64,000 bases of DNA. It comes from a virus. Lineage: Duplodnaviria > Caudoviricetes. The stretch spans positions 32,001-96,000 of the IMG/VR virus record IMGVR_UViG_3300023283_000076; one strand, given 5' to 3'. Shown here one piece after another: positions 11,839 to 35,129 of this stretch. The notes below the pieces were generated by a model. That model made no database searches, was not told where the DNA came from, and saw only the letters and a list, made by a program, of their open reading frames with translations. Position numbers and translations under genes: made by a program. Position 1 is the first letter of the stretch. Every line of letters begins with the position of its first letter.

Positions 11839-11876
11839 ATAGTAAGAATACCATAGATTGAGGTTAAAGTAAATAA

Positions 11877-12075
11877 CAGCATGAGATTATTGCTACAAAT
11901 TGATCGCCTTTCGTCGCCGTACCCATAATTTTCCTATTATGGTTAACTCCTTATCCAGATAAACCAAGTGCAAAACACTTGCGAATACCTATCGATCAAG
12001 CAGTGCCATCTTGTAAAGTTGGAAGCTTTCACCTTCTGGAGCAAATGACTGATTCGATTACTCACTATCCAACTT
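11877..12075 (-). ncRNA. Two adjacent structured RNA domains (A 12016-12075, C 11877-12014) without the GOLLD-like insert
   Basis: Homologous to 24282-24361 and 25100-25238, with compensatory stems. Confidence 0.65.
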
Positions 12076-12142
12076 GGAAACCATCCTAACGCTTTATTTA
12101 TTCTTTGTCAACACTCTTTTCAATTTTTTCTCTCAATACATA

Positions 12143-13794: not shown

Positions 13795-13803
13795 ATCTTA
13801 AGA

Positions 13804-14487: not shown

Positions 14488-14513
14488 AACCCCTAACGCA
14501 CGCGTTAGGGGTT
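14488..14513. repeat. 26-bp palindrome at the inner end of the left arm
   Basis: AACCCCTAACGC-AC-GCGTTAGGGGTT. Confidence 0.9.
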
Positions 14514-14602
14514 ATGATATATATGCTGATAGTGTTACGCTTAACGAAATATTTAATGGTTTGAAGGTATCTAATAAATATAAAATACTGTATACATAAT
14601 TA

Positions 14603-17527: not shown

Positions 17528-18655
17528 TTAACTCGCTTTTTCAAACCATGGTATTTCTAATTCGTTAAATCTCTTAAGCTGTCCGTCATCATAATATTCA
17601 ATTTTATTTTTATATTCATATCCATCAGAATCTTTACGATGAATCAAATTATTATTCGAATCAAATTCTTTCCAATATTCATATCCATCAGAACTTTTAC
17701 AATGAATCAAATTATTATTCGAATCATATTCTTTCCAATATTCAACTTCATCGGAACTTTTATAATGAATCAAATTATTATTCGAATCATATTCTTGCCA
17801 ATATTGAAATCCATTAGAATTCTTATAATGAATTACATTATTATTGGAATCAAATTCTTGCCAATATTCATATCCATCAGAATTCTTATAATGAATCAAA
17901 CTATTATTGGAATCATATTTTTTCCAATATTCAACTTCACCAGAATTCTTATAATGAATCAAATTATTATTCGAATCAAATTCTTGCCAATATTCATGCC
18001 CATCAGAGTGGTTATAATGAATTAAATTATTATTGGAATCATATTTTCTCCAAGATTCTATACCATCAGAATTCTTAAAATGAATTAAATTATTATTGGA
18101 ATCATATTTTCTCCAAGATTCTATACCATCAGAATTCTTAAAATGAATTACATTATTATTCGAATCAAATTCTTGCCAATATTGAAATCCATCAGAATCT
18201 TTATGATGAGTCAAATTATTATTCGAATCAAATTCTTGCCAATATTCATGCCCATCAGAATCTTTACGATGAATCAAATTATTATTCGAATCAAATTCTT
18301 TCCAATATTCATATCCATCAGAACTTTTACAATGAATCAAATTATTATTCGAATCATATTCTTTCCAATATTGAAATCCATTAGAATTCTTATAATGAAT
18401 CAAATTATTATTGGAATCATATTTTTTCCAAGATTCTATACCATCAGAATTCTGATAATAAATCAAATTATTATTCGAATCAAATTCAATGCTATCTTTA
18501 TTATTCTTTAACCACCTGACATAATCTTTATGATCACCGTTAACTTGATCTAATAACTCAAGCGGAAATCCAATAAGATTATTATTTTTTACAAATTCAA
18601 CAGCACTAGTACATGCATCGCGTTCATTTAAAAATTTTTCAGTTAATGTATTCAT
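17528..18655 (-). CDS. Tandem 21-aa repeat protein (beta-repeat, YD/MORN-like)
   Basis: ~14-15 repeats of (E/K)(Y/F)DSNNNLIH(Y/R/F)K(N/D)SDG.EYW.; 63-bp DNA period. Confidence 0.85.
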   Translation of the reverse strand: MNTLTEKFLNERDACTSAVEFVKNNNLIGFPLELLDQVNGDHKDYVRWLKNNKDSIEFDSNNNLIYYQNSDGIESWKKYDSNNNLIHYKNSNGFQYWKEYDSNNNLIHCKSSDGYEYWKEFDSNNNLIHRKDSDGHEYWQEFDSNNNLTHHKDSDGFQYWQEFDSNNNVIHFKNSDGIESWRKYDSNNNLIHFKNSDGIESWRKYDSNNNLIHYNHSDGHEYWQEFDSNNNLIHYKNSGEVEYWKKYDSNNSLIHYKNSDGYEYWQEFDSNNNVIHYKNSNGFQYWQEYDSNNNLIHYKSSDEVEYWKEYDSNNNLIHCKSSDGYEYWKEFDSNNNLIHRKDSDGYEYKNKIEYYDDGQLKRFNELEIPWFEKAS

Positions 18656-19630: not shown

Positions 19631-19817
19631 ATTTTAATTTCCTTTCAATTTTTGCCATTCTTTTATTCCTGATTTCTATTCGTCAATATACTACAGAATG
19701 GAATCAATGTCAATTCAATCCTTAAAAACATAAATGATCCTAAATTATATAATAAAAAATGTACCAGAATATAACATTAAATAATTCGTTAAGCTCATCA
19801 TAACCTACATATATACC

Positions 19818-19847
19818 AAAACCCCTAACGCACGCGTTAGAGGTTTT
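19818..19847. repeat. 30-bp palindrome at the inner end of the right arm
   Basis: AAAACCCCTAACGC-AC-GCGTTAGAGGTTTT. Confidence 0.9.
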
Positions 19848-20276
19848 TAATATATTTCAATAACATACATTATTATGTGAACTGTAAAAATTATATTATA
19901 TAAATATTATCGCAATATCATATTGATAACATTCCGAAAACCCTATAAACACTATATTTTCAATTTTAAAAAAATACTACATAAAGTATTGTTTTTAAAC
20001 ACTTTTTTATGATGATTGGGTGGAAAATGTAAAAATATATTTGGCATGGCCCGCAAAATATAAAAATATCAAAAAAATTCTCTCAGACCCTCTTTACCAT
20101 AAGTAACTGTTTTTATTACATTTTTTTATAATGTTATTAAGTTTTTCCCTAGGGGACTAATCAATTTTTACCTTGGCCCCCTATGTAATATAGATGATTT
20201 TTATAAAACAGTTTAAAATAGTAAAAACAATTGTAAGTATTGTTGATACAGTTTGGGATGGTAATGAGGGTAAAAA

Positions 20277-20482
20277 TGAGAATCATCCTCATCGGCGTAT
20301 TGCAAATGATTATCATTCTCATCACGCTCATGAGAATAAGAATCATTCTCAAATAGCGTCATAAATGATAATCATTCTCATTTAAGATTTTAGATATATT
20401 ACTTCCATCGTATCACATTTTTAAAAAGTTGTCAAGCATTTTCATCATATGCGAACGCTATTACAAATGATAACAATTCTCA
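20277..20482. promoter_or_regulatory. Array of five Fur-box-like sites
   Basis: 7-1-7 matches at 20277, 20307, 20337, 20366 (TGATAATcATTCTCA), 20468. Confidence 0.65.
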
Positions 20483-20546
20483 TTTAGCGTAGGACATAAT
20501 GATATTCTCTACCATATTATATCACAAAAAAAGTTTAAATCAAGGG

Positions 20547-20575
20547 TTGACATTGTATATATTATATGGTAAAGG
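20547..20575 (+). promoter_or_regulatory. TTGACA-N17-TAAAGG promoter-like motif
   Basis: Upstream of the first right-arm operon. Confidence 0.65.
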
Positions 20576-20590
20576 TACTAAAGTAGGAAT

Positions 20591-21250
20591 TTGTATTTTT
20601 CCATGTTGATATTGTGTACAAGTATTTTTTATGTTATACTGAGGGTTCAAATTATATTGGAGAATATAAAAATGATTAACAAGATATATAATATTGTTAG
20701 TATGGAAATGGATAACTCTAGGGTACGTTTTAACTACACTTCTAAGGTTACTATTGCGATATGGTTGACTCTAACTGTAGAGGTGTTTATTCATGTTGCA
20801 AGTGCGTTTCTATTTTTAGAAGTAAATAATGATGGCCACATTTATAGTGATGTTACTTTTAATCAATTTGCATTTTTATTAAATATTTTCCCATACCTGT
20901 TACTTTGTTTATGCAGTTTGATTGTTTTAATTGATAAGATTATTGGCGTATTAACTTCATTTATTACTGAGGATGATTATGTAGAAGAGCATTTCCTTTC
21001 TAGCCGGATTATTGGTGTTCCTTCTTATGAAATTGAAAATATTTTATTTTTACAAACGATATATATGGTATTATATATTACCGTGATGCCAATATTGTTT
21101 TTAGTTGTATTTCCGTCATGGATTCCACTTGTTGTAATAGTAGGCGTTATTGTTGGTGTAATGTATCTGGCGAGATTTTCATATCGTTTGAGTAAGCGAT
21201 TAAGGACACATATTAATGATCCTAATGCACATACAAAGGAGAATGCATAA
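20591..21250 (+). CDS. Multi-pass membrane protein (start probably ATG 20672)
   Basis: Several TM segments; C-terminal RF...RL.THINDPNAH. Confidence 0.75.
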   Translation: MYFSMLILCTSIFYVILRVQIILENIKMINKIYNIVSMEMDNSRVRFNYTSKVTIAIWLTLTVEVFIHVASAFLFLEVNNDGHIYSDVTFNQFAFLLNIFPYLLLCLCSLIVLIDKIIGVLTSFITEDDYVEEHFLSSRIIGVPSYEIENILFLQTIYMVLYITVMPILFLVVFPSWIPLVVIVGVIVGVMYLARFSYRLSKRLRTHINDPNAHTKENA

Positions 21251-21729
21251 TGTTTAATAAGATACTTAAAATATTTAACGATGATATTTCGTTTTTACAA
21301 TTTATAGCAGCAGTGACTGGTCCGGCTTCAGGTATAGCCATGGCCATGTTAATAGATCTTGATAAAAGTTCCAGTTCTGTAATTGTTACATCTGTTCCAA
21401 TGTTTTGGTTTATGCTGCTAGCTCTAATTACAGCTATTGTTAAGATTGGAGCTATGTATGTAGAATATGCTACCAGAGGTGAGTATACTATTCCTTCTGA
21501 CTGGATGTTATTTGATGATAAAGGTTTGTTGCATAGTTTGACTCTTTATTGGTATATACTCGTATTGACCACATATACTCTTATAGTCTTGTATTATACA
21601 CCATTATCTATTACAATTGGAATATTGTTAATTATAGGATTGACTGCGTTATCGAGATTCGTGTTTGGAATCATGGGTAAACTCGATACTCATGTTAATG
21701 ATGCTGATGCACATTTGAAGAAAAAATAA
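21250..21729 (+). CDS. Multi-pass membrane protein, paralog of the previous gene
   Basis: TM segments; C-terminal SRF...KLDTHVNDADAH. Confidence 0.8.
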   Translation: MFNKILKIFNDDISFLQFIAAVTGPASGIAMAMLIDLDKSSSSVIVTSVPMFWFMLLALITAIVKIGAMYVEYATRGEYTIPSDWMLFDDKGLLHSLTLYWYILVLTTYTLIVLYYTPLSITIGILLIIGLTALSRFVFGIMGKLDTHVNDADAHLKKK

Positions 21730-21833
21730 ACAAGGATATTTAAGAATGTTTTATATAATTGAATATTTCTATTGTTGTATGGATGTTGCAATAAAGTCTT
21801 GTATTTTTAGTCATGTATTCAAAGGAATAAAGA

Positions 21834-22979
21834 ATGAAATATTTTAGATTATCATATATAGTATTATTGTCATGTTTATTATTGTATAGTGAGGATGTTA
21901 TTGTTAAAGAATTATCTGTTAATGACGTTAGCATCATTGAACTATCGAATATATCTGAAGATAATTTAAAAGATATTGAGATAACTGTTTTTGGTCGATC
22001 ATTTACATTAGAACTCTCTAAAAACGTTGAATTGTTTTCCACATTGGTTTCTAATAATGGTGATGATTTATTTTTACGTGGAACGGTATCAGGTATTTCT
22101 AATTCTTGGGTTCGGTTGAATAGAATTGATGGAGATTTCAGTGGTGGATTCTTTGATGGTCAAGAACTCTATTTAATTGATCACAGTATGGGACTGACTA
22201 ATAATTCACTTAATGATAATACTATTGTATACAGATTATCTGATTTAAATATTCCATTTCATATTGATGATGGTGGTATTGAAAATATTTCTGTTAATGA
22301 TACAGAAAAAGATTATAAAACATTTATTGGACATTTACGTGAATTTGTTAAAATTCAAGAAACTGCTGTATTAGCATTACCTTTAACGATTGTCAGTGAT
22401 GTTGAATTTAATGATATTCATGGTGATAATGCTACATCTATAATAGCAGGTAGAATTAATTTAATTGATGGTATTTACACTAATCAATTAGGAGTTGGGC
22501 TTATATTTTATCATCATGAAATATTATCAGATAATGGTCCATTGATATCGAATGATGCATTACAATTATTAAGAACGTTTAGGACTTTTATGGATACTGG
22601 TATTGGGCAAGATATCCCCTTTGAAGGTATAGCTCATTTAGTTACTGGTAAGAATTTTGATGGTAGCACTATTGGTACTGCATTCATGGATGTTCTTTGT
22701 AGCAGTTTTGCTGGATACGGTGTTAATCAAGATTTTTCTAATGATACTACCAGTGCATTGATATTGGCACATGAGATCGGTCATAATTTTAGTGCTCCAC
22801 ATGATGGACAACCGAATTCTGCATGTGAAGATGAAACATTTAGGGGAATCATGAGTGCTAGTATTAATGGATCGCAACAGTTTAGTGATTGTAGTCTTGA
22901 TCGAATGGCGCAAGCAGTTTCTTCTGCAAATTGTTTAGTAGAACGTGGAGAAGTTATTTTTTCTGATGGTTTTGAATAA
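21834..22979 (+). CDS. Secreted reprolysin-like (M12B) zinc metalloprotease
   Basis: Signal-peptide-like N-terminus; HEIGHNFSAPHD; GIMS Met-turn; C-terminal IFSDGFE. Confidence 0.85.
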   Translation: MKYFRLSYIVLLSCLLLYSEDVIVKELSVNDVSIIELSNISEDNLKDIEITVFGRSFTLELSKNVELFSTLVSNNGDDLFLRGTVSGISNSWVRLNRIDGDFSGGFFDGQELYLIDHSMGLTNNSLNDNTIVYRLSDLNIPFHIDDGGIENISVNDTEKDYKTFIGHLREFVKIQETAVLALPLTIVSDVEFNDIHGDNATSIIAGRINLIDGIYTNQLGVGLIFYHHEILSDNGPLISNDALQLLRTFRTFMDTGIGQDIPFEGIAHLVTGKNFDGSTIGTAFMDVLCSSFAGYGVNQDFSNDTTSALILAHEIGHNFSAPHDGQPNSACEDETFRGIMSASINGSQQFSDCSLDRMAQAVSSANCLVERGEVIFSDGFE

Positions 22980-23014
22980 TTGACATTTATAAAAAGCTAT
23001 GATAGAGTAAATGA

Positions 23015-23797
23015 ATGAGAATAATTTCAAAATATTCAGATTATTATGATTCGGTGATGGGATCAGGTTATGACCCTTCATTGATTTTCAAACGTAAAGG
23101 CGCTTTTGATGATCCTATTGATTCATATGTGAATTTTGATGATTCATTTGGATATAGAGCCACGGTAGATCATACTGATCAGGCTCGCTATCTTGGAACA
23201 AAGTTGAATCCTGAATATTTTGGATATGTTTATCTAGGTAATCGAAGTAAAAAACTTCATAATAATAGAATCATTTTAGAGAAGGCTTTCAGAGCACATT
23301 CCAAGAGAAATGTTACTATTATTGATAGTGTTTTTTACGTAATAGGTTTCTGTGGTAAGACATATGTGATTTATGAAATTGATTATAGCATAGACAATAA
23401 TCGATCATGTTTTCGAATAGTGAATAAAAAGAATAAATTATTTCAAAAAGTGGATAAGAAAAAACGGGACATGATTGTAGTAGGTGAAATTCCTGATTTG
23501 ATACGGGGAAATGTTCATGACATTTTTCTTTATCTTAATTGCCCTATTTTTCTTTTAGAGATGGTTAAATATAATAACAGAGTTAAAATAATTCGTAACC
23601 CGATCTTGAAAGATTTAGGATTTGCTGCTATACTTGATCCATATACTGCTTATCAGGAATTGTCTATGTACATGGGATCGGTGTTTGCACCATCTGAGCC
23701 TGATATGGTAGATATATCTGATAAAGACTTATCTGAGTCCAAGGGATTCAATGATTGGTCTTTTAAAAAGTATCCAACAAAAAGGAAGAGTAAATGA
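23015..23797 (+). CDS. Conserved phage hypothetical protein; paralog of 12865..13644
   Basis: ORF track; paralog. Confidence 0.85.
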   Translation: MRIISKYSDYYDSVMGSGYDPSLIFKRKGAFDDPIDSYVNFDDSFGYRATVDHTDQARYLGTKLNPEYFGYVYLGNRSKKLHNNRIILEKAFRAHSKRNVTIIDSVFYVIGFCGKTYVIYEIDYSIDNNRSCFRIVNKKNKLFQKVDKKKRDMIVVGEIPDLIRGNVHDIFLYLNCPIFLLEMVKYNNRVKIIRNPILKDLGFAAILDPYTAYQELSMYMGSVFAPSEPDMVDISDKDLSESKGFNDWSFKKYPTKRKSK

Positions 23798-23907
23798 TTT
23801 ATATATTTGGATTTGTTTCATTGTTATTGGTTGCAGTCACCGTATGGTGTTTTGCCAAAGTATGCAAAACTGATCGATATTCATATCGTGAAGTTGATGA
23901 CAATTAG
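23794..23907 (+). CDS. 37-aa single-TM protein; paralog of 12755..12868
   Basis: Manual translation MIYIFGFVSLLLVAVTVW. Confidence 0.65.
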   Translation: MIYIFGFVSLLLVAVTVWCFAKVCKTDRYSYREVDDN

Positions 23908-23955
23908 CGCTTAACATTGGTTCTAATGGTTTTCACTGTGCTGTAGCTGTATTTA

Positions 23956-24213
23956 ATGGAAGAATGGAACATGACTGATATTATAAGTGGCGTAATCGAA
24001 GAACGTGGTAATGGTTTGCCTAGTGTTGATGATTATGCCTATCACAGCTTGACTAACACGGTCTACCGAATTGTTAACACTGGTTGTATTGTTACAGGAC
24101 GTGTTGGGCAGGGTAATTTAATGCATGTAAAACTAGAAGAATATGGTGATCCGTTTGATTTGACAGATGAACAATTTGATGATATTGTATGGGCTTTACA
24201 TTTAGAAGAATAG
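23956..24213 (+). CDS. Hypothetical protein; paralog of 12143..12415
   Basis: ORF track; paralog. Confidence 0.8.
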   Translation: MEEWNMTDIISGVIEERGNGLPSVDDYAYHSLTNTVYRIVNTGCIVTGRVGQGNLMHVKLEEYGDPFDLTDEQFDDIVWALHLEE

Positions 24214-24245
24214 TAAGTATTGACAGAAAAAAGTTGAAAAAAGTG

Positions 24246-24274
24246 TTGACAAAGAATAAATAAAGCGTTAGAAT
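24246..24274 (+). promoter_or_regulatory. Sigma70-like promoter of the ncRNA cluster
   Basis: TTGACA-N17-TAGAAT; left-arm copy has TAGGAT. Confidence 0.75.
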
Positions 24275-24281
24275 GGTTTCC

Positions 24282-24361
24282 AAGTTGGAGACAGAGAGTA
24301 ACTGAACCATATGATCCATAGTCATTTTCTCCGGTTGCTCTAGCGTAAATGTCTCCAACTT
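24282..24361 (+). ncRNA. Stem-closed small RNA domain A
   Basis: 11-bp AAGTTGGAGAC/GTCTCCAACTT closing stem at the predicted TSS. Confidence 0.55.
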
Positions 24362-24362
24362 T

Positions 24363-25099
24363 TAATTAAGAAAAAAGAAGTACAGTTTTGGGCATGACCG
24401 TGATAGCTCATTGAAAGATGGGTAACGGGAAAGGTGCTACCCACCTTCCCGCCTAGAGAAATTTAGGTTGAGTCATGCAAGCCGAGACTCTGGAAAATTC
24501 GTCCATAATAATTCAGGCGGATTTCAGACGAAACGGGATGGTAGGTTAGACCGAGGCCAACTGGTAAGGTCGTTCTAAGGTGACGCTTAGTACCTACATG
24601 TCAACATCTTGAGCGTTGGAGAGTCAAAGGGTAGTTATTTGGTGTGAGTCTTAGCGGATAAATGCTGAATAGCAATGTTAACGGTGAGCTAAACCTTATC
24701 GTGAAACATGGTCGAAAGTAATCTTAGCGGATGAAACGGCAAACGGTGTTGTCATATTTCGTACCTCAAAAGGGTATGAAGTGATGGAGACGGCACATCG
24801 TTAGGTAGTTTGCAGTCTTTGTAGCTCAATAGGTAGAGCTACCGCCTTATAAGCGGTTTGTTGTAGGTTCAAGTCCTACCAAAGACCCATAATAGATAAC
24901 TGGGTTTAAAATGCAAAAGTCCGTCTCGGTAAAAGGTGAGCAAGGTAGTTAAGTCTACACTGCGAAAGCAGAATGTAGAATCTTTGAGGGCCGCAAGCTT
25001 GATAAGATTTGGTTAGAAGCGCACGTCGAGGGCCGTACAACCTTCGGGGGAAGCTGAAAGCCGAGTAGCCTTTTATGACAGCGCAAACGCTAGCGCTTT
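24363..25099 (+). ncRNA. Large ornate ncRNA, GOLLD-like, with embedded tRNA
   Basis: ~740 nt, GC-richer, ORF-free, many hairpins (e.g. CTGC-GAAA-GCAG; TACC-TCAAAA-GGGTA), GAGTAGC near 3' end, internal tRNA; family by resemblance only. Confidence 0.55.
24815..24889 (+). tRNA. tRNA-Ile(UAU)
   Basis: GTCTTTG/CAAAGAC acceptor, ACCGC-CTTATAA-GCGGT, GTAGG-TTCAAGT-CCTAC. Confidence 0.9.
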
Positions 25100-25238
25100 A
25101 CAAGACAGCACTACTTGATCGATAGATATTCGCAAGTGTTTTGCGCTTGGTTTATCTGGATAAGAAGTTAACTTTAGGTTTGCAGCCTGAAGGTACGGCG
25201 ACGAAAGGCGATCAATTTGTAGCAATAATCTCATGCTG
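25100..25238 (+). ncRNA. Structured RNA domain C, conserved in both arms
   Basis: TTGATCG/CGATCAA core stem; inner hairpin differs in sequence between arms but still pairs. Confidence 0.7.
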
Positions 25239-25260
25239 CTATTTACTTTAACCTCAACAT

Positions 25261-25602
25261 ATGGTACTCTTAGTCATGGATAATTTACTCGATAGACAAA
25301 AGAATGATCTTGCAAACGAAATTACAACATTCATTACAAATATTACAGGAGTAGCTGTAGAACCTAATCCGAATGAAGGATTTGAATTTGTAGAGTACAG
25401 GAATTTTATTCCTAACAAACGATCAATTAATAATTCAATTAAAGAATTCAATATTCTATTTAATGTGCTATGTGAAAACGGATGGGAAGTAGATACTGAA
25501 ATAGAAGATTTTGATCTCGCTATCCATTTAACTAAAGCTCATTGTTTTGTTACTTTATCTATTTGTCGAAATGGATTACATGTTTTTTTTGAAGAGATTT
25601 GA
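25261..25602 (+). CDS. Hypothetical protein; paralog of 11478..11838
   Basis: ORF track; paralog. Confidence 0.75.
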   Translation: MVLLVMDNLLDRQKNDLANEITTFITNITGVAVEPNPNEGFEFVEYRNFIPNKRSINNSIKEFNILFNVLCENGWEVDTEIEDFDLAIHLTKAHCFVTLSICRNGLHVFFEEI

Positions 25603-25907
25603 TCATGAGTAATCAGGTAATTATTGATATTCGTCATTTCAGTGATGATATTATTATCTTGGCTGAAGATAATTATGGTAAAACGTTTCTTTCATTTACA
25701 CCAGACACCTACAAAAAATTTTCTAATGTAGAAGAACTTTTGTATGAAGTTGCGACCACACCCGAAATGGATGGATCGTTTTATATAGACCTTGAGGATT
25801 TTTCGGTCGTATGTGAATTATGTAACAGTGTAGAAGTGCATGGGTTTTATCCGCCGTCAGATGAACGTCACGATGAAGTTTTCGTGTATAATAATGACGA
25901 TGACTAA
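25599..25907 (+). CDS. Acidic hypothetical protein (deleted on the left arm)
   Basis: ORF track; coupled to the upstream stop. Confidence 0.7.
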   Translation: MIMSNQVIIDIRHFSDDIIILAEDNYGKTFLSFTPDTYKKFSNVEELLYEVATTPEMDGSFYIDLEDFSVVCELCNSVEVHGFYPPSDERHDEVFVYNNDDD

Positions 25908-25939
25908 TAGGTCTATTTAGAAGAAATCTAAAGGATAGT

Positions 25940-26263
25940 ATGATGAACAACTTAAAACTTACTAAAGATGAATGTAAGCAATGGATTGAGGATTTGCGCT
26001 CTGGTGAATATAAACAGTGCAAGGGCAAATTGAAAACTGCAAATCAACATGGTGTATATTTTTGTTGTTTGGGTGTTTTGAAAGAGACACAGGATAAGCC
26101 TCGACATAAAGCTGTGGGGGGGGGTGAACAACAAGAGATTCTTAGTTATGATGTATTATCCAAAAACACACAACATACTCTGATAAAGATGAATGACGGT
26201 GGAATATCATTTTCAGAAATCTCAGATCATATCGAAAAAAGAATTTTGCCGCGTCGAAAATAA
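25940..26263 (+). CDS. Conserved phage hypothetical protein
   Basis: W...LRSGEYKQ.KG.L...FCCLGVL...MND.G.SFSEI.D.IE; contains a G9 run. Confidence 0.8.
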   Translation: MMNNLKLTKDECKQWIEDLRSGEYKQCKGKLKTANQHGVYFCCLGVLKETQDKPRHKAVGGGEQQEILSYDVLSKNTQHTLIKMNDGGISFSEISDHIEKRILPRRK

Positions 26264-26335
26264 AATTAAAGAACCTATTGACAGTTAAGCAAACTTCGGA
26301 TATACTTTATTTCCAACAAAATTAGGAGAATTTAA

Positions 26336-27112
26336 TTGTATACTGGTTACAAGTCGAAAAATCTGTTGAGCGTAGGTGCAGATTCCAAAACGATCAAGAG
26401 TCTTAAGAAGGGTATCTTGACTGGTATTTTGTATCTCGCCCCGAATGACATTAGTGGTCATAATACATGTTCTAACGCCACAACGGGATGTAAGAAAGCA
26501 TGTTTGTATACTTCCGGGCATGGTCGCTTTAATAATGTACAAAAGGCACGTATTCGTAAGACTAAATGGTTTTTTGAAGAACGTGAAACCTTCATGGCAC
26601 AATTAGTAAAGAATGCTGAATCATTGGAGCGCAAGGCTTACCGTGAAAAGATGATACCGGCTATTCGTCTTAATGGTACAAGTGATATTCCGTTTGAAAA
26701 AATCCGTGTTGTTCGTCAGGGTGTTAATTATCGTAATATCATGCGAGCGTTTCCGGGTATTAGGTTTTACGACTATAGTAAAATCCTAGGACGTAAGATG
26801 GCTTTGGCAATGCCTAATTATCATTTAACGTTCAGTCTAGCTGAGGATAATGATACTCAAGCTGTTAAAGCATTGGGACAGGGTTATAATGTTGCTACTG
26901 TCATGCGTTTAAAGCGTAATGATCCAAAGCCTAAAACATGGGGTGGTTATCCTGTTATTGACGGTGATGAATTTGATGCACGTTTTCTTGATCCTGATGG
27001 TGGTCATATTGTAGCCCTATTTGCAAAGGCTGATGCTATACATGATACGTCAGGATTTGTTCGTGATCCTAATACAGGGTTTAATATTCCTATGAATGTA
27101 AAGGTGGCTTAA
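26336..27112 (+). CDS. GP88-like phage protein (Cys-rich)
   Basis: ILYLAP...C..AT.GC.KACL.TSG.G, IRLNGTSDI, FYDY.K, YHLTFS, DGD..D.RFLD. Confidence 0.75.
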   Translation: MYTGYKSKNLLSVGADSKTIKSLKKGILTGILYLAPNDISGHNTCSNATTGCKKACLYTSGHGRFNNVQKARIRKTKWFFEERETFMAQLVKNAESLERKAYREKMIPAIRLNGTSDIPFEKIRVVRQGVNYRNIMRAFPGIRFYDYSKILGRKMALAMPNYHLTFSLAEDNDTQAVKALGQGYNVATVMRLKRNDPKPKTWGGYPVIDGDEFDARFLDPDGGHIVALFAKADAIHDTSGFVRDPNTGFNIPMNVKVA

Positions 27113-27415
27113 ATGCAAACATCTAAAAGAGTACAAGTGCAGTATGACCAACTTAAATTGATTAATGCTGCAAAATATCTGGCCAAGTACAATAATATTG
27201 GCACTAAGAATCAAAACCGATCAGTAGATGATTGGTATCAAGATATTTTGAATAATATCAAACGTGCTGCTAAAGAAAAATTTGATATATTTTCTACAGG
27301 TGGTTACACATTGAATCTTGAAATTGATTCTTTTGATAGCTACCATGTAGATATAACAGTTTCTCCAAGTTTCGGAGATATTATTTTGAAAAGTACTGAG
27401 GTGTATATTCAATAA
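27113..27415 (+). CDS. Hypothetical protein (left copy 5'-deleted, ~10210-10378)
   Basis: ORF track; remnant on the left arm. Confidence 0.75.
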   Translation: MQTSKRVQVQYDQLKLINAAKYLAKYNNIGTKNQNRSVDDWYQDILNNIKRAAKEKFDIFSTGGYTLNLEIDSFDSYHVDITVSPSFGDIILKSTEVYIQ

Positions 27416-27759
27416 TGAATATTGTTAAATATAAGGTTACTGGTGAATTCGGGACATATAACATTGGTGAAGTTGTAGAATCAATTAAACTTATAGAAAC
27501 AGATAGTGGATTGGCTTTGTTATATCATCCAAGGGGTTCAAATGGAGATTGTGCAAGTTTGGAATATGCACAATATGATACCAAAGAAAATCTTTATGTA
27601 TCTGTTGATATCGTTGCTCAATACATCAATATTAATTCAGGAAAATTTTTGAATGAATTAAAAGCAAAATTAGATGAAATAAATTATCGGGACGTGTATT
27701 TAGATAAGAATAATAAAATACAAAAAGCAAATCAAAGTAAAGACAGCCTAAATGAATAA
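27415..27759 (+). CDS. Hypothetical protein; paralog of 9851..10213
   Basis: ORF track; paralog. Confidence 0.8.
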   Translation: MNIVKYKVTGEFGTYNIGEVVESIKLIETDSGLALLYHPRGSNGDCASLEYAQYDTKENLYVSVDIVAQYININSGKFLNELKAKLDEINYRDVYLDKNNKIQKANQSKDSLNE

Positions 27760-28006
27760 TGTAAACATGCATTATGTGAATATTATCATGCAGTATCTAT
27801 ATGATCGTGCTGCCACAGAAATGAAGTCGGTAACTCCCCGAGTAGTTTGGGGAGTGAATACTTTAGAAGAAAATGTAGATATCATTATAAAAGAATATGG
27901 ATTAGACTATCGTGAGGCATTTGACTTTGACGAATTTATGGACTCTGCTAGTTTTGTTGATCATAGCTTCGAAGATTTATTTGATTTAAAATATATTGAA
28001 AATTAG
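27752..28006 (+). CDS. Hypothetical protein, right arm only
   Basis: ORF track; overlaps the upstream stop. Confidence 0.6.
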   Translation: MNNVNMHYVNIIMQYLYDRAATEMKSVTPRVVWGVNTLEENVDIIIKEYGLDYREAFDFDEFMDSASFVDHSFEDLFDLKYIEN

Positions 28007-28033
28007 GTTAATTTAATTTTTCCTATTTTAGAG

Positions 28034-28106
28034 CCTTTATCATAGATCCTACTCTCGTGTCAACCCATTTTTGTAAATAATAAATTAATTGCAAAAATGG
28101 GTTGAC
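28034..28106. promoter_or_regulatory. Back-to-back promoter pair: TAAAGG-type on -, rIIA promoter on +
   Basis: 15-bp perfect inverted repeat GTCAACCCATTTTTG/CAAAAATGGGTTGAC carrying both -35 boxes. Confidence 0.7.
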
Positions 28107-28228
28107 TATAACGGGATGCCATGGTATGATAGCGGCTCGTGAATAGGGAAATGAATTAGAAATTTCTCTTGTAAATCGCTAAAAATTTTGGTAGACTATT
28201 CACTCAACAAATATAGGAGATTTAACCA

Positions 28229-30697
28229 GTGAAGCTCAATACCAGTAACTATAAGGCTACAGGCGCAGGATTTAAAGAAGTCGCAAAATTCAAGATGGAC
28301 ATGAACGCTAAGGCGGCTCGTGTTTTGTCTGATACTCTTTACAAGGATAAAATTGGTTCTATCATCCGTGAGATTAGCTGCAATGCTTTTGATGCTCACA
28401 TTGAAGCTGGGTGCCCTGAAAAGCCTTTTAAGGTTAAGCTGCCGGATGCTTTTGATCCTACCTTTTCGGTTCGTGATTTTGGACCGGGTTTGAGCCATGA
28501 GGACGTTGAAGGTATCTATACCACGTACTTTGGTTCTACTAAGGATCAGGCTAATGATGCTGTAGGCGCATTCGGGCTTGGTTCTAAGACTCCGTTTTCA
28601 TACACTGATTCATTCATGGTAACTTCCATTCATAAGGGTGTGAAGCGTGTATATAATGCTTATCTTGAAGAAGGGTTGCCACAGATTAGTATGTTCGGCG
28701 AAGGTGTAGAAACTGATGAGCCTAATGGTCTTGAAGTAACAGTAACTATTGATCCAAAGGATTTTCATGAATTTAAAAATTCATTGGTAAAGCAGCTTCG
28801 TTTCTTTCCAGTAAAGCCGGAAGCTAGTGTAGAATGGCCGACGATTGAAAAGGTAATTGCTAAGATTGATGGATTCATGTACTTTCAGTCAAGTAATGAT
28901 ATTATGCGTGGGTTCTTTATCAAGCAGGGTCCGGTAGCATATCCAGTAGATTTTGATTTGATTCGTGATTATTACACTACCCATATTAGTAAAACCGGAA
29001 GTTCTAAGAATCTGCCATATTATACTCGAAACCCGAAAAATGAAGGTGAACGTTTTATTCAGTTTCTTGAATCGTTCAATCGTCATTCATACGGTAGGTC
29101 TAATAATCATGGTGCATATATGGATATGCCCATTGGTACAGTAGAAGTTACTGCCAGCCGTGAAGGTATCTCTTACACTCAAGAAACGATGCATAACATT
29201 TGTGTTGCATTAGATAACGTTCGGAATAAAATGTTTGATTCTATCAAGCATGAGCTTGATGATGCTTTTGCTACTTCAAAAGGTGAGTTTTATAATTTGT
29301 ATAAGGATTTGCCGGAGTTCATGGTATCGTTTCTGCCGAAGGAACGGTTCAATCAAAAGTATAGCCCGTTTTATATTGATAAGAATAATACTTTTACTTT
29401 GAAACTTCCTAGAAAGTTTAAGGAGTTGGAAGTATCTACTTACAATACCATTAATAGTACGCCTAAGAAAGAAGCGCATTATTCATGGTCTAATTCAAAC
29501 AATCCTAATGGCAATGCTGACTATGAAAACTCTCCATTTGCGCTTAATGTATTGACGCACGTTCTTGGCGGTACTTCGGTTGGAGGTACTTCGGTTTACT
29601 ACAAGGATGAAAGTTATGCATTTGCTACAAGAGCGTATAATGATGCCGATACTAGAAAAATTGTAATCATTGAATTGCCAGAGGATAAGTACGATAGCTT
29701 TATTAAGTTTTTAGATGGTGCTGTGAAAAATATTACAAAGATATCTAGCCTTCCTATGCCGTCACGTAATACTAACTCTAGTAGTCATAGTATTACTGGT
29801 GGTCAGAAACGTTCTTGGTTCTGGTTGAACAGCCAAATTTTTAATAGTAGCAGTTTAACTAACACTTTGTATAGTTATGGTTGCGATCAAGAATTTGAAG
29901 AAACCATCGAAGATTATAATGGTAAGACTCTTGTATGTTTCAATACATTCAATAATAAGATTAGAGACACTGAGTTGCCATTTGAGATTCTACATTTGAT
30001 ATTTAATTATGTTACACTTAAAAAGTCTGATGATTATGCATGTATCGGCATTGCAGAAAAAGATATGAAACGTGCATTGAAAAATAATCCAAACAATTTT
30101 GTATCTGTCAAGGATTACTTTGAAACTCATAAGAGTGAAATCATTAAGGCAGTCCGAGACGGTATTAATGAAACTATTGTTGAAGAGTATGAAAACAGAA
30201 TGCGTAGGCATTTCGACGTAAACAGAATATTTAATACTCTTATGAATATCAAGATTGATCGAAGTATTACATTGGTTGGTCTGGATGATATTTTCTTATC
30301 GAAAGATGAGTATGAAGATAAGTCAGGTAGAGCGAAGCCAAGTCTCTTAGGTTCGATGCGCCCGAATAGTTTTAGGGACGCAATGACATATTTGGGTACG
30401 CATGATGTTTTAGACCGTCAACGGGATGCGCAAAAAATCCTAAATACTCTTGCCTCAATGGAACAAGTTGAAAAGGAATTAAAGGGTTTGAATGTTCCTA
30501 TTGTTTCTATGGTCGATAACCATAAGAAAATCGTAAAAATGTTTAAGAATCCAGTTAATAGAAAGAATTTTCTAAATCTGGTTATTGAAGGTAATATTGG
30601 AAATAGTTGCAGAATCTCTGACTATTGTTTTGATCCGAATACTATTCTGGTTGATCCGGTCAAGATTGCAAAAGAAATTATTGACGAAATTGCTTGA
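28229..30697 (+). CDS. rIIA: RIIA-like protein, second copy
   Basis: Same GHKL motifs as 7278..9731. Confidence 0.9.
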   Translation: MKLNTSNYKATGAGFKEVAKFKMDMNAKAARVLSDTLYKDKIGSIIREISCNAFDAHIEAGCPEKPFKVKLPDAFDPTFSVRDFGPGLSHEDVEGIYTTYFGSTKDQANDAVGAFGLGSKTPFSYTDSFMVTSIHKGVKRVYNAYLEEGLPQISMFGEGVETDEPNGLEVTVTIDPKDFHEFKNSLVKQLRFFPVKPEASVEWPTIEKVIAKIDGFMYFQSSNDIMRGFFIKQGPVAYPVDFDLIRDYYTTHISKTGSSKNLPYYTRNPKNEGERFIQFLESFNRHSYGRSNNHGAYMDMPIGTVEVTASREGISYTQETMHNICVALDNVRNKMFDSIKHELDDAFATSKGEFYNLYKDLPEFMVSFLPKERFNQKYSPFYIDKNNTFTLKLPRKFKELEVSTYNTINSTPKKEAHYSWSNSNNPNGNADYENSPFALNVLTHVLGGTSVGGTSVYYKDESYAFATRAYNDADTRKIVIIELPEDKYDSFIKFLDGAVKNITKISSLPMPSRNTNSSSHSITGGQKRSWFWLNSQIFNSSSLTNTLYSYGCDQEFEETIEDYNGKTLVCFNTFNNKIRDTELPFEILHLIFNYVTLKKSDDYACIGIAEKDMKRALKNNPNNFVSVKDYFETHKSEIIKAVRDGINETIVEEYENRMRRHFDVNRIFNTLMNIKIDRSITLVGLDDIFLSKDEYEDKSGRAKPSLLGSMRPNSFRDAMTYLGTHDVLDRQRDAQKILNTLASMEQVEKELKGLNVPIVSMVDNHKKIVKMFKNPVNRKNFLNLVIEGNIGNSCRISDYCFDPNTILVDPVKIAKEIIDEIA

Positions 30698-30756
30698 CAA
30701 TTGATTAAACGATAGGTTATACTATATACTCGTTAAACAAATAGGAGATTTATAAA

Positions 30757-31881
<1,125 letters not shown>

Positions 31882-31900
31882 CCAAGTCTAGCAAAAAATG

Positions 31901-31959
31901 GTGGTCAGTATGTAGTGTATGCTTTTTCTATTCCTTCTGGCGTATACCATACTGACCGC
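31901..31959 (+). other. Conserved hairpin downstream of rIIB
   Basis: GGTCAGTATG/CATACTGACC stem. Confidence 0.7.
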
Positions 31960-32003
31960 TTTTAAATTGACATATTTAACAATAGGAATTATTAGATACC
32001 ATT

Positions 32004-32171
32004 ATGAACAAACTTGAACAGCGTCTTATTGAATTAACTAAACAGTTATCTAATGCACGTAGAGATAATGATGAAGAATCTATTGAAGAATTAGAAGATG
32101 AGATTGATGAATTAGAATATGAAATTGAAGAAGAATATAATCGACGTTATGAAACAGATTGGGATGATTGA
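32004..32171 (+). CDS. Small acidic coiled-coil protein; paralog of 5941..6108
   Basis: Manual translation MNKLEQRLIELTKQLSNARRDND. Confidence 0.8.
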   Translation: MNKLEQRLIELTKQLSNARRDNDEESIEELEDEIDELEYEIEEEYNRRYETDWDD

Positions 32172-32347
32172 TAATTTTGTAATGGAGAAATAAACTAAAC
32201 TGGAAACTGGGCTAGTTAAAAAGCCCCTGATATGGCTCATCAATATTAAGGTAAATTAGAAATGTGATCGGTATATTTTAGTTCGCAAATCTATAAATAG
32301 AGCTATGTGCTGGTAGAGGTTGGAAAAGACATAAATGAAAAACTTAC

Positions 32348-32421
32348 GCCGGTATAGTTAAATGGTATAACGAGGGATTTGTAACCCCTAATTTGCAGTT
32401 CGATTCTGTGTACCGGCACCA
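32348..32421 (+). tRNA. tRNA-Thr(UGU)
   Basis: GCCGGTA/TACCGGC acceptor, loop TTTGTAA, TTCGATT, CCA. Confidence 0.85.
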
Positions 32422-32430
32422 GATTACAAA

Positions 32431-32504
32431 GTCTCCTTGGTGAAATGGAATCACGGCATCCTTACAAGTTGCAGTAGGCGGATCGTAACCGTCAGGAGAC
32501 ACCA
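32431..32504 (+). tRNA. tRNA-Val(UAC)
   Basis: Near-identical to 5595-5668. Confidence 0.8.
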
Positions 32505-32550
32505 GCTATCATTTGACACTCTCTTAAAATTGTGATATAATTAATTCATA

Positions 32551-33009
32551 ATGAATAGGAAAAAGTTAAAAATGAAAAACCCCAAAACTATGCAAGAATA
32601 TTTTAAACAGTCGTCCTTTACTGATGCCGAATTAAATTATATATACAATTTCATGGATACTCTTCAGAGAATGGTCAAAAGTCTAGGTATCGAATACAAT
32701 GCAGTCTGGAGAACCATTTTTTCTGATATGCGACTGTTTGAAGAAATGATGTTTAAGCGTTTCAATATGATTTCGAATTATAGTAATTCAATTGAAGATA
32801 GCCCTGAAGGGGTTGATAGTTTTTCAGTACCTTTTATTTTCAATGTAAATGTAAACGATAATACTATGCCTGATCACGTTCGTAATGAACTGTTCAGATA
32901 CATATGGAATTTGACTGATGAAGAAATAGCTACAAAAATTTCTATTCCTGAAACAGAAGAAGATGAACCGGATGAAGATATTTTGAATGTTTTCCAAGAC
33001 AATTTATAA
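32551..33009 (+). CDS. Hypothetical protein (intact copy of 5104..5568)
   Basis: ORF track; paralog. Confidence 0.8.
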   Translation: MNRKKLKMKNPKTMQEYFKQSSFTDAELNYIYNFMDTLQRMVKSLGIEYNAVWRTIFSDMRLFEEMMFKRFNMISNYSNSIEDSPEGVDSFSVPFIFNVNVNDNTMPDHVRNELFRYIWNLTDEEIATKISIPETEEDEPDEDILNVFQDNL

Positions 33010-33059
33010 ATTATGTGGTCATGATAGCATGGCTATGATCAGAACATACATATTGGAAC

Positions 33060-33578
33060 ATGGATAAAAAATTAATTTCATCTCTTAATATGCCTTCTAA
33101 ACATCTTAAGGCACTTCGAGATTGGCAAGCTACGAAAGTTAATACTTTTGAAGGTAAATGGTTCACAAAAGAACGTAAGATAAAAATTCCAACTGCCCTA
33201 GATATTATTAACAGATTAGAAAACCATTGGAATATATATGTTTCACCAATATTTCCAGAATATAAATGGCATAATTTTGGAGAAGCATGGCCGGTGAGTT
33301 ACAGATGTGTTGCAATAAATGTATCAGCAAAAGAATTATTCGCGTCGACCGTTATTCATGAAGTAAGTCATGGAATTGTGGAATGTGCAAAAACTTTTCA
33401 TAAAAATGGAAGAAAATTAAAAGATCCCGGCCATGGTGCTATATGGTGTGGGGTATATGCATATAATACAATGTTAATTACAAATAAAGATATCACAGGT
33501 CCTTTGGCCCTACATAATATTAAGCAGGTTAATCAAGATGACATATTAAAATTTCGAGACTATTTCAAAAATACCTGA
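33060..33578 (+). CDS. Putative HExxH zinc-dependent protein; paralog of 4405..4923
   Basis: VIHEVSHG...DPGHG..W. Confidence 0.7.
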   Translation: MDKKLISSLNMPSKHLKALRDWQATKVNTFEGKWFTKERKIKIPTALDIINRLENHWNIYVSPIFPEYKWHNFGEAWPVSYRCVAINVSAKELFASTVIHEVSHGIVECAKTFHKNGRKLKDPGHGAIWCGVYAYNTMLITNKDITGPLALHNIKQVNQDDILKFRDYFKNT

Positions 33579-33618
33579 AGTATGATACACTACCTAAACA
33601 CACAAAGGGATATTAGAT

Positions 33619-33876
33619 ATGAAACAAAATACAGATTATTCACCGACCACCAGAGTAACCCAGTTAGGAAAATTGGGTACTCTTACAACTACTATTAGAA
33701 ATTATAATGATGGAACATCTGAACTCCATCAGACACTTACCTTTCTAGATCAAAATCAAAATGTGCACGAAGTTGTATCTTCGACAGGCGACTTGATTTT
33801 TGGAAGTTTGAAAGATCTAAAAGAAGTAGAGGAGTTAACCGGGTGGATCTCTGGAAATTCAATTAGAGATGCTTGA
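33619..33876 (+). CDS. Hypothetical protein; paralog of 4106..4366
   Basis: ORF track; paralog. Confidence 0.8.
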   Translation: MKQNTDYSPTTRVTQLGKLGTLTTTIRNYNDGTSELHQTLTFLDQNQNVHEVVSSTGDLIFGSLKDLKEVEELTGWISGNSIRDA

Positions 33877-33935
33877 CATTTATAATTTTATTTGATATTA
33901 TTAATGAAACATAAATCATAAGGATGTAAGAATTC

Positions 33936-35078: not shown

Positions 35079-35129
35079 GCTTGACTTCAGCATAGTTTTT
35101 TGATAGTATAATTAATACATTAAACAGGA

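What the first reader, a model, noticed from the sequence alone, without database searches (positions are those of the whole stretch)
24246..25238. ncRNA operon: GOLLD-like giant RNA with embedded tRNA-Ile(UAU), present in only one arm
Seen: one promoter precedes domain A (80 nt), a ~740 nt ornate ORF-free insert containing a full tRNA-Ile(UAU), and domain C. The left arm has A and C joined directly at CCAACTTT|ACAAG (12011-12023), so the insert is a clean indel with CTTT at both junctions. Known: GOLLD RNAs are large phage-associated RNAs that can carry internal tRNAs. Inference: a mobile or excisable giant-RNA module; family identity is by resemblance only.
Basis: partly seen in the sequence, partly recalled or inferred. 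Interest (0 to 1): 0.85.

Follow-up and report, generated by a model that had tools for sequence, protein, structure and literature searches.

The report
GOLLD phage RNA carrying tRNA-Ile
This gene-free kilobase of a jumbo-phage contig encodes a divergent member of the known GOLLD family of giant cage-forming phage RNAs, with a normal-looking isoleucine tRNA in its internal linker. The copy in the other arm is a deletion remnant, not evidence of a mobile element.

Summary
Window 24246-25239 (+) has a near-consensus sigma-70 promoter, an 80-nt leader hairpin and about 870 nt with no ORF over 53 aa. A canonical tRNA-Ile(UAU) lies at 24815-24888.

Rfam GOLLD (RF02032) matches 24744-25237 over the whole model. 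The E-value is 4e-31, but the score is 114.6 bits, below the curated cut-off of 150. The 5' half is homologous to the 5' domains of GOLLDs that do pass the cut-off (L026, L127). A 9-sequence alignment gives 125 consensus pairs, 98 with compensatory changes. The tRNA sits in the GOLLD linker, where the literature already reports tRNAs.

The left arm keeps the promoter, a degraded leader hairpin and only the last 140 nt of GOLLD. The 737 nt absent there are flanked by CTTT. Because the retained piece is an integral part of GOLLD, this is a microhomology deletion, not a mobile or excisable module.

No transcript data and no close relatives were found. Whether both arms lie on one molecule rests on the assembly alone.

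Verdict: a new, divergent member of a known kind. This scan has already reported GOLLDs with tRNA or tRNA-like linker modules on other DNA. Interest is modest.

The parts
24246..24274 (+). Sigma-70-type promoter TTGACA-17-TAGAAT; the transcription start is predicted near 24281
   Evidence: 11 of 12 consensus positions, the best site in 23800-25800. 96% identical to the left-arm copy. Function not shown.
24282..24362 (+). A 12-bp outer stem encloses a 10-bp inner stem and an apical hairpin. It is lineage-specific and not part of GOLLD.
   Evidence: -31.4 kcal/mol, z -5.57. L127 and L131 have their promoter immediately upstream of the 5' domain, without this hairpin. No Rfam family matches it.
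24367..24743 (+). GOLLD 5' (cap) domain, the variable half of the family
   Evidence: Shares blocks with the 5' domains of L026 and L127, both above the Rfam cut-off, and with L131. nhmmer E 6.6e-60. 47 consensus pairs, 37 with compensatory change against 8-17 in slid controls.
24744..24806 (+). Hinge hairpin that opens the conserved GOLLD 3' region (Rfam model positions 1-62), with the conserved CUCAAAAGGG loop
   Evidence: alignment. Covarying 14-pair helix 24751-24766/24772-24785.
24787..24927 (+). Linker loop closed by a 7-bp covarying helix (24787-24793 with 24921-24927). It holds the tRNA.
   Evidence: columns 587-593/750-756, every pair with compensatory changes. Linker position as in Kretsch et al. 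(bioRxiv 10.1101/2024.12.08.627333) and PMC12990946 (J13/15).
24815..24888 (+). tRNA-Ile(UAU) with a canonical cloverleaf and no complete encoded CCA
   Evidence: ARAGORN; Rfam tRNA, 71.6 bits. It is the only UAU-anticodon tRNA among the 48 tRNAs of the record. After discriminator C73 the sequence reads C-A-U.
24906..25239 (+). Conserved GOLLD 3' (ring) domain with the long-range helix 24929-24937/25068-25076 and the conserved GCAAAAGUC, GAGUAG, UGGAUAAG and UAAUCUCA motifs
   Evidence: RF02032 positions about 120-416; 74 pairs in 24744-25245, 57 with compensatory change.
25100..25239 (+). This is the 3'-terminal three-way junction plus terminal hairpin of GOLLD, by helix order P23-P27. It is the only GOLLD part also present in the left arm.
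   Evidence: Mapping to P23-P27 is inferred from the description in Kretsch et al. (L27 pairs with P23 and J24/26; L26 docks on P14) and was not verified on a structure.
12083..12111 (-). Left-arm copy of the promoter, TTGACA-17-TAGGAT
   Evidence: 10 of 12.
12016..12076 (-). Left-arm copy of the leader hairpin. It is shorter and has lost the inner stem.
   Evidence: -14.7 kcal/mol, z -1.65.
11876..12014 (-). Left-arm remnant of the GOLLD 3' terminus (the counterpart of 25100-25239), joined directly to the leader hairpin at a CTTT microhomology. One hairpin has been replaced by an unrelated 7-bp hairpin.
   Evidence: 91% and 95% identity either side of the replaced hairpin. nhmmer with the subfamily C profile gives E 4e-16. 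The Rfam GOLLD model does not see it.

Best explanation
Window 24281-25239 is a GOLLD RNA gene of a jumbo phage, carried on a 270,653-bp IMG/VR record.

Proposed working, with shown and inferred steps marked:
- Host RNA polymerase starts at a strong sigma-70-type promoter (inferred from consensus).
- It transcribes a stable leader hairpin and then a GOLLD of about 870 nt. The parts are a 5' cap domain, a hinge hairpin, a linker closed by a 7-bp helix, and the conserved 3' ring domain (shown by model match, homology and covariation).
- By homology with the solved env-38 (14-mer) and Streptococcus agalactiae (12-mer) GOLLDs, the RNA most likely self-assembles into a closed RNA-only cage, with the linker pointing inward (inferred; not testable here).
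- The linker carries a canonical tRNA-Ile(UAU). AUA is the phage's commonest Ile codon and this is its only UAU tRNA. I therefore expect the tRNA to be matured from at least part of the transcripts by RNase P and a 3' endonuclease plus the CCA-adding enzyme. Cage assembly would delay or shield that release (inferred).
- The leader hairpin is a lineage-specific addition, most likely a 5' stabiliser.

The left-arm copy descends from the same gene. It lost 737 nt in one deletion between two CTTT repeats: the whole 5' domain, the tRNA and most of the 3' domain. What remains is the promoter, a decaying hairpin and the terminal P23-P27 module. It is most likely a remnant.
For: GOLLD identity
- RF02032 matches 24744-25237 across model positions 1-416 at 114.6 bits, E 4.1e-31, with the long-range helix and conserved motifs in place. 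It is the only hit in the record.
- The 5' half shares conserved blocks with L026 (159.5 bits) and L127 (181 bits), both above the cut-off, and with L131 (81.8 bits, from a complete 328-kb phage).
- In the 9-sequence alignment A4, 98 of 125 consensus pairs show compensatory changes. 89.9% of cells are paired, against 35-41% when partners are slid. In the 5' domain alone, 37 of 47 pairs are compensatory, against 8-17 in controls.
- The whole RNA folds at z -6.5. It is ORF-free.

tRNA
- It lies 349-422 nt before the GOLLD 3' end. That is the same place as the linker tRNAs in L026 and in five other of the 119 pattern-hit loci, and the alignment places L127 and L131's tRNA-like genes at the same spot.
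- The literature says tRNAs are sometimes in the GOLLD linker and face the cage interior (bioRxiv 10.1101/2024.12.08.627333; PMC12990946; PMC6582537).
- AUA runs at 36-39 per 1000 codons, above AUU and AUC. There is one tRNA-Ile(UAU) among 48 tRNAs.

Deletion in the left arm
- Domain C corresponds to the last part of the GOLLD model. All relatives have a contiguous GOLLD.
- CTTT is present at both right-arm breakpoints and once at the left-arm junction.
- The left copy also has a weaker -10 box, a truncated hairpin and a replaced hairpin loop that lacks the family's GCA motif.

Assembly
- Logan contigs of two runs carry 23931-25221 as one 1,291-nt piece with no differences. These runs are probably the source samples, so this is not independent support.
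Against: - The Rfam score is below the curated gathering cut-off (114.6 against 150), so by Rfam's own rule this is not an automatic member.
- There are no expression data. No RNA run holds the stretch.
- No terminator follows the RNA, so the 3' end and the independence of the transcript are unknown.
- Cage formation and tRNA release are pure inference.
- The consensus structure was derived from the same alignment used to count covariation, which inflates the contrast with the controls.
- For 'remnant': the left C piece is 91-95% identical to the right one, while third codon positions of flanking genes are 68-83% identical. Two point substitutions in its stems keep pairing (A-U to G-U; U-G to U-A), and the replaced hairpin is again a perfect 7-bp stem. 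Continued constraint on the left copy therefore cannot be excluded.
Confidence: 0.85

Rival explanations
1. The left-arm unit (promoter, hairpin A, P23-P27) is not a dead remnant. It is a selected small RNA of about 200 nt derived from GOLLD. It could be a stand-alone terminal module that binds a GOLLD partner or interferes with assembly of the full-length RNA, or a structured 5' leader for the downstream genes.
For: - The promoter is 96% conserved and C is 91-95% conserved, against 68-83% at third codon positions of neighbouring genes.
- The stem substitutions preserve pairing, and the replaced hairpin is again a perfect 7-bp stem with an A-rich loop.
- The UGGAUAAG and UAAUCUCA motifs are invariant in both arms. 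According to Kretsch et al., the terminal loop L27 pairs with J24/26; from the sequence I place UAAUCUCA in L27 and UGGAUAAG in J24/26.
Against: - The constraint could date from before the deletion. With the right copy constrained, a neutral left copy would show only about half the neutral divergence (10-15% expected, 7% seen over 159 nt), which is a weak contrast.
- Hairpin A has decayed in the left arm (z -1.65) and the -10 box is weaker.
- The known partner of the replaced loop (P14) is deleted.
- A whole-hairpin replacement can arise in one template-switch event without selection.
- No other orphan terminal modules turned up among 119 loci. The two clear candidates checked were full GOLLDs and two were chance matches.
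Confidence: 0.12
2. One reading: the 737-nt block is a mobile or excisable giant-RNA module that inserted between A and C, or can leave precisely, with CTTT as its target duplication or excision site.
For: A clean junction with CTTT at both ends in the right arm and once in the left.
Against: - The block is not a self-contained unit. It is GOLLD without its last ~140 nt, and C supplies exactly the missing end of the Rfam model.
- No integrase, homing endonuclease, intron or ribozyme signature lies in or beside it.
- No contig in the two holder runs shows the joined form in the right-arm context or the insert in the left (no joints). This is weak evidence, because contigs drop rare variants.
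- Relatives carry a contiguous GOLLD.
- A 4-nt microhomology is typical of replication-slippage deletion.
Confidence: 0.03
3. The two 'arms' are not paralogues in one genome. They are homologous regions of two related phage strains joined head-to-head by the metagenome assembly. 'Present in one arm only' would then be a strain polymorphism: one strain has lost GOLLD and tRNA-Ile.
For: - The inverted homology covers record positions 1-46.5 kb against 51.8-102.7 kb at 69-93% identity, and it runs to the very end of the contig.
- So large a diverged inverted duplication is unusual for a phage.
- Per-contig k-mer depths of left and right pieces differ about 2:1 in run X1 and are about equal in X2. 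Two contigs have loose ends at 14814 and 22006.
Against: - The depth figures are per-contig means that sum strains, and the tool warns against ranking by them.
- The centre (14.5-19.8 kb) is asymmetric and carries a 63-bp x 14 tandem array.
- GC skew switches sign at the centre, as expected for divergent transcription or replication from one molecule.
- Assemblers do not normally merge sequences that are 70-93% identical.
- This rival does not change what the RNA is.
Confidence: 0.2

Closest known systems
GOLLD RNA (Rfam RF02032; Weinberg et al. 2009; solved cages env-38 14-mer and Streptococcus agalactiae 12-mer, as described in bioRxiv 10.1101/2024.12.08.627333 and PMC12990946)
   Same: - Size (about 870 nt), ORF-free, phage context.
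- Two-domain layout with a variable 5' half and a conserved 3' half.
- Full-length match to the covariance model at E 4e-31.
- Conserved motifs and the long-range helix.
- A variable linker between hinge and 3' core.
   Different: - Scores below Rfam's gathering cut-off (114.6 against 150 bits), as does the L131 GOLLD of a 328-kb phage (81.8 bits).
- Has an extra 80-nt leader hairpin between promoter and 5' domain.
- Has a longer penultimate hairpin.
- Assembly state is unknown.
GOLLDs with a tRNA in the J13/15 linker (Mycolicibacterium tRNA-array GOLLDs, Morgado et al. 2020 as cited in PMC12990946; pseudo-tRNA in M. aubagnense GOLLD, PMC6582537)
   Same: A tRNA gene lies on the same strand inside the linker. 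The literature describes this region as facing the cage interior.
   Different: - Here the tRNA is a high-scoring canonical tRNA-Ile(UAU) (71.6 bits), not a pseudo-tRNA.
- It is the record's only reader with a UAU anticodon for the phage's commonest Ile codon.
- The closest relatives carry tRNA-Gln(UUG) (L026) or Gln-like genes with 8-nt anticodon loops (L127, L131) at the same spot, so the passenger has been exchanged.
ROOL RNA (the other phage-associated cage-forming giant RNA)
   Same: A large, ornate phage RNA near tRNA genes, with no known protein partner.
   Different: No ROOL model match at E up to 10. ROOL's two halves are intertwined, whereas here the halves are separable as in GOLLD.

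Membership tests
GOLLD RNA (RF02032) | Match to the Rfam covariance model at or above the curated gathering score (150 bits) | tested here: not met
   114.6 bits over model positions 1-416. The E-value is 4.1e-31 for the 1.3-kb search and 2e-32 per genome, so the match is far beyond chance but under the curators' line. Much of the loss appears to come from the tRNA-bearing linker insertion and a few divergent hairpins.
GOLLD RNA (RF02032) | Conserved 3' domain: hinge hairpin, long-range helix enclosing two hairpins and a branched stem, terminal three-way junction and terminal hairpin with the UAAUCUCA loop | tested here: met
   The alignment covers every element. Helices were recovered independently by RNAalifold on the subfamily alignment, with compensatory changes in 57 of 74 pairs.
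GOLLD RNA (RF02032) | Structured but variable 5' domain of about 400 nt, contiguous with the 3' domain | tested here: met
   24367-24743 is homologous to the 5' domains of L026 and L127, whose 3' halves pass the Rfam cut-off. 37 of 47 pairs have compensatory changes.
GOLLD RNA (RF02032) | Phage or prophage location, typically near tRNA genes; non-coding | tested here: met
   IMG/VR virus record of 270,653 bp with rIIA and rIIB nearby. 48 tRNAs in the record. No ORF over 53 aa inside the RNA.
GOLLD RNA (RF02032) | Self-assembly into a closed homo-oligomeric RNA cage | not testable with these tools
   Known for env-38 and S. agalactiae GOLLD (bioRxiv 10.1101/2024.12.08.627333; PMC12990946). Testing it here needs in vitro transcription plus cryo-EM or mass photometry.
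GOLLD RNA (RF02032) | Expressed as a discrete RNA during phage growth | tested here: inconclusive
   Only two DNA runs, the likely source samples, hold the stretch. The single RNA run listed shares 6% of the words, and I did not lay its reads to see which part it shares.
Functional tRNA-Ile(UAU) | Canonical cloverleaf, 7-nt anticodon loop with U33, standard T-loop, and a maturable 3' end | tested here: met
   Rfam tRNA 71.6 bits with all stems Watson-Crick; ARAGORN. No complete CCA is encoded, whereas all but three or four of the other 47 tRNAs carry one. Maturation would therefore need CCA addition. Aminoacylation was not tested.
Mobile genetic element / intron | A self-contained unit with its own mobility function or splice or ribozyme signature, found at independent sites | tested here: not met
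   The 737-nt block is an incomplete GOLLD. No intron or ribozyme family matched. No mobility gene is adjacent. It has a single copy in the record.

The most novel reading that the evidence does not exclude
Two related ideas are not excluded.

1. The left-arm unit may be a naturally minimised GOLLD derivative that is still expressed: a 200-nt RNA made of a leader hairpin plus the terminal P23-P27 module. It would work alongside the full-length GOLLD of the other arm, for example by titrating a shared partner or capping and modulating cage assembly.

2. The full-length GOLLD may cage the phage's only AUA-reading UAU tRNA, so that decoding of its commonest Ile codon is gated by cage assembly or disassembly.

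Together they would give GOLLD its first concrete, testable function.
Probability: 0.1. Interest if true: 0.75.

Novelty: new member of a known kind. Interest (0 to 1): 0.33.

Why it matters
GOLLD is one of the largest bacterial or phage non-coding RNAs, and its function is still unknown. Recent cryo-EM work showed that it builds RNA-only cages, but not what the cages are for.

This locus adds three things:
- A divergent jumbo-phage member that standard Rfam thresholds miss.
- A clear case where the linker passenger is a fully canonical tRNA that the phage probably needs, because AUA is its commonest Ile codon. That makes the 'stored or caged tRNA' idea testable on a defined substrate.
- A natural deletion variant that keeps only the P23-P27 module.

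None of this changes the picture of what GOLLD is, and this scan has already met linker-tRNA GOLLDs on other DNA. The value is as a good test substrate rather than as a discovery.

Tried and rejected
- BLAST of 24246-25260 and of 26000-33900 against GenBank phages found only tRNA-level or distant rII matches and no relative.
- Searches for syntenic loci with the two flanking small proteins in IMG/VR found nothing.
- Two exact-pattern scans of metagenome contigs, one for the lineage-specific C core and one for the promoter, found nothing.
- The 5'-motif scan of IMG/VR gave 16 loci, but only 3 are GOLLDs. The other 13 were chance matches.
- A search for other 'orphan' terminal modules using nhmmer profiles was uninformative. 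My core profile misses other GOLLD subfamilies. Of the four candidates checked, two were full GOLLDs and two were chance matches.
- The Rfam GOLLD model does not recognise the left-arm remnant, even in a 501-nt search at E up to 10.
- Rfam gave no family for hairpin A, only noise-level miRNA and snoRNA hits.
- No RNA run holds the stretch, so expression could not be addressed.
- Depths of Logan contigs differ between the arms, but they are per-contig means and cannot decide whether the arms share a molecule. No listed contig spans the centre.
- I did not use the count of structure pairs, because it would have needed a typed 1,166-character structure string. The same counts and slid controls were computed in a script instead.
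- I could not map the L20-J13/15 kissing loop described for env-38 onto this sequence by eye.

Full report
**What is there**

The window is positions 32001-96000 of a 270,653-bp linear IMG/VR virus record, with a CheckV completeness estimate of 79%.

After an 85-aa ORF ending at 24213, the plus strand holds these elements in order:
- The best sigma-70-type promoter of the neighbourhood, TTGACA-17-TAGAAT at 24246-24274.
- A very stable stem-loop at 24282-24362 (-31.4 kcal/mol, z -5.6).
- About 870 nt without any convincing ORF. The longest inside the RNA is 53 aa, on the minus strand.

ARAGORN and the Rfam tRNA model both find a canonical tRNA-Ile with anticodon UAU at 24815-24888 (71.6 bits). 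The whole 963-nt stretch folds far better than shuffles (z -6.5).

The next ORF probably starts at the second ATG, 25276. A 2-nt indel between the two ATGs puts the first one out of frame in one arm.

**Identity**

At Rfam gathering thresholds only tRNAs are reported. With E-value reporting, the GOLLD model RF02032 aligns to 24744-25237 over all 416 model positions. The score is 114.6 bits and the E-value 4.1e-31, below the curated cut-off of 150 bits. It is the only such hit in the record.

The alignment shows the following:
- the hinge hairpin with its CUCAAAAGGG loop;
- the A/U-rich linker, where the tRNA is treated as an insertion;
- the GCAAAAGUC element;
- the long-range helix 24929-24937/25068-25076;
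- GAGUAG;
- the terminal three-way junction with UGGAUAAG;
- the terminal hairpin with the UAAUCUCA loop.

A pattern built on the last three motifs retrieved at least 119 IMG/VR loci, many from contigs over 200 kb. A motif from the 5' half then picked out three real GOLLDs that share this RNA's 5' domain. They are L026 (159.5 bits), L127 (181 bits) and L131 (81.8 bits, from a complete 328-kb phage). An nhmmer profile added L092, L046, L076, L085 and L029.

On the 9-sequence alignment A4, RNAalifold predicts 125 pairs, 98 of them with compensatory double changes. In my own count, 89.9% of cells are standard pairs, against 35-41% when the 3' partners are slid by 1-3 columns. The 5' domain alone has 47 pairs, 37 with compensatory change, against 8-17 in the slid controls.

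The structure was derived from this same alignment, so the contrast is somewhat inflated. It is nevertheless large. Taken together, this is a GOLLD RNA of a divergent subfamily that Rfam's threshold misses.

**The tRNA**

The tRNA sits in a loop closed by a covarying 7-bp helix, 24787-24793 with 24921-24927. It lies 349-422 nt before the 3' end of GOLLD.

The same position holds tRNA-Gln(UUG) in L026. In L127, L131 and L076 it holds Gln-like genes that ARAGORN reads with 8-nt anticodon loops. In other loci it holds Leu, Asn, Arg and a CUA-anticodon tRNA. About 6 of the 119 pattern loci have such a passenger.

This feature is already in print. Kretsch et al. [quoted passage not shown] A 2026 review (PMC12990946) cites a tRNA-Phe in J13/15 of Mycolicibacterium GOLLD and proposes 'inhibited storage'. 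PMC6582537 reports a pseudo-tRNA inside a mycobacterial GOLLD.

Specific to this locus:
- The tRNA looks fully functional.
- It is the only UAU-anticodon tRNA among the record's 48 tRNAs.
- AUA is the phage's most used Ile codon, at 36-39 per 1000 in long ORFs, against 24-29 for AUU.
- It lacks a complete encoded CCA, whereas all but three or four of the other 47 tRNAs carry one.

**The two arms**

Record positions 1-46.5 kb are a diverged inverted copy (69-93% identity) of 51.8-102.7 kb. In window coordinates these are 1-14.5 kb and 19.8-39.4 kb.

The left-arm counterpart of the locus, read in reverse complement, aligns as follows:
- to the right-arm promoter at 96% identity;
- to the start of hairpin A;
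- then, across a single junction, directly to 25095-25272 at 91% and 95% identity either side of one replaced hairpin.

The junction reads CCAACTTT|ACAAG at 12010-12022. In the right arm, CTTT stands at 24359-24362 and at 25096-25099, so 737 nt are absent on the left.

The retained piece is the end of the GOLLD model. By helix order it is P23-P27, a compact module in which, according to Kretsch et al., loop L27 pairs with P23 and J24/26. It has no independent existence in any relative, and all relatives carry a contiguous GOLLD.

The parsimonious history is therefore a microhomology-mediated internal deletion in the left copy, not insertion or excision of a mobile module.

The left copy shows further decay:
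- a weaker -10 box;
- a hairpin A that has lost its inner stem (z -1.65 against -5.6);
- a penultimate hairpin whose loop no longer carries the GCA motif shared by the family.

Hairpin A itself is not a GOLLD element. In L127 and L131 a TTGAC-17-TATAAT promoter lies immediately before the 5' domain.

**What remains open**

The left remnant is better conserved than the third codon positions of neighbouring genes (91-95% against 68-83%). Two stem substitutions preserve pairing, and the replaced hairpin is again a perfect 7-bp stem.

This is compatible with continued selection on a small derived RNA. It is equally compatible with a recent deletion in a copy whose partner is constrained, plus a one-step hairpin replacement. 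I give the functional-remnant reading about 0.12.

No transcript evidence could be obtained. No terminator follows the RNA, so it may be co-transcribed with the downstream small genes.

Whether both arms are on one molecule rests on the IMG/VR assembly. Logan contigs of the two holder runs confirm the right-arm locus as one 1,291-nt piece and show no alternative joints. They do not bridge the centre, and their depths differ between arms in one run.

**Comparison and verdict**

The 'mobile or excisable module' inference is not.

The locus is a new, divergent member of a known RNA family with a known type of passenger. This scan has already reported GOLLDs with tRNA or tRNA-like linker modules on other DNA.

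Its practical value is as a clean substrate for asking whether GOLLD cages control release of an embedded, needed tRNA. It also offers a natural truncation series: the full RNA against P23-P27 alone.

Noticed in passing
window 1-14560 versus 19775-39416 (record 1-46.5 kb versus 51.8-102.7 kb): A roughly 46-kb diverged inverted duplication (69-93% identity) that runs to the very start of the contig. It includes second copies of rIIA, rIIB and several tRNAs. GC skew changes sign at the centre. It is either a very unusual phage architecture or a head-to-head assembly of two related strains.
   Followed up: partly
window 17612-18487: A tandem array of 13.9 copies of a 63-bp unit (86% matches) in the asymmetric centre between the arms. 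It could be an iteron-like origin region or a repeat-protein gene.
   Followed up: no
L127:6719-6794, L131:5241-5318, L076 (linker), L046 (linker): Linker passengers of related GOLLDs include tRNA-like genes that ARAGORN reads with 8-nt anticodon loops (four-base 'anticodons' UUGA and UUUG) and one with a CUA (amber-reading) anticodon. GOLLD linkers may favour unusual decoders.
   Followed up: no
window 24886-24892: The GOLLD-embedded tRNA-Ile has C73 followed by C-A-U, so no complete CCA is encoded. All but three or four of the other 47 tRNAs of the record encode CCA. The linker tRNAs of L026, L127 and L131 also appear to lack CCA when read by eye in the alignment.
   Followed up: partly
whole record (G000): AUA is the commonest isoleucine codon (36-39 per 1000 in ORFs of at least 150-500 codons), above AUU and far above AUC. 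This is unusual even for a 35% GC genome.
   Followed up: partly
window 25240-25275 and 11840-11875: The 36 nt between the GOLLD 3' end and the likely start codon (25276) are about 90% conserved between the arms. They share UUUACUUUA with the sequence just after the L026 GOLLD, and no Shine-Dalgarno sequence is visible. A 2-nt indel shows that the first ATG (25261) is not the conserved start.
   Followed up: no
window 14814 and 22006: In run X2, one Logan contig at each place continues into 255 nt unlike the window. This hints at strain variants or alternative joins near the inner ends of the arms.
   Followed up: no
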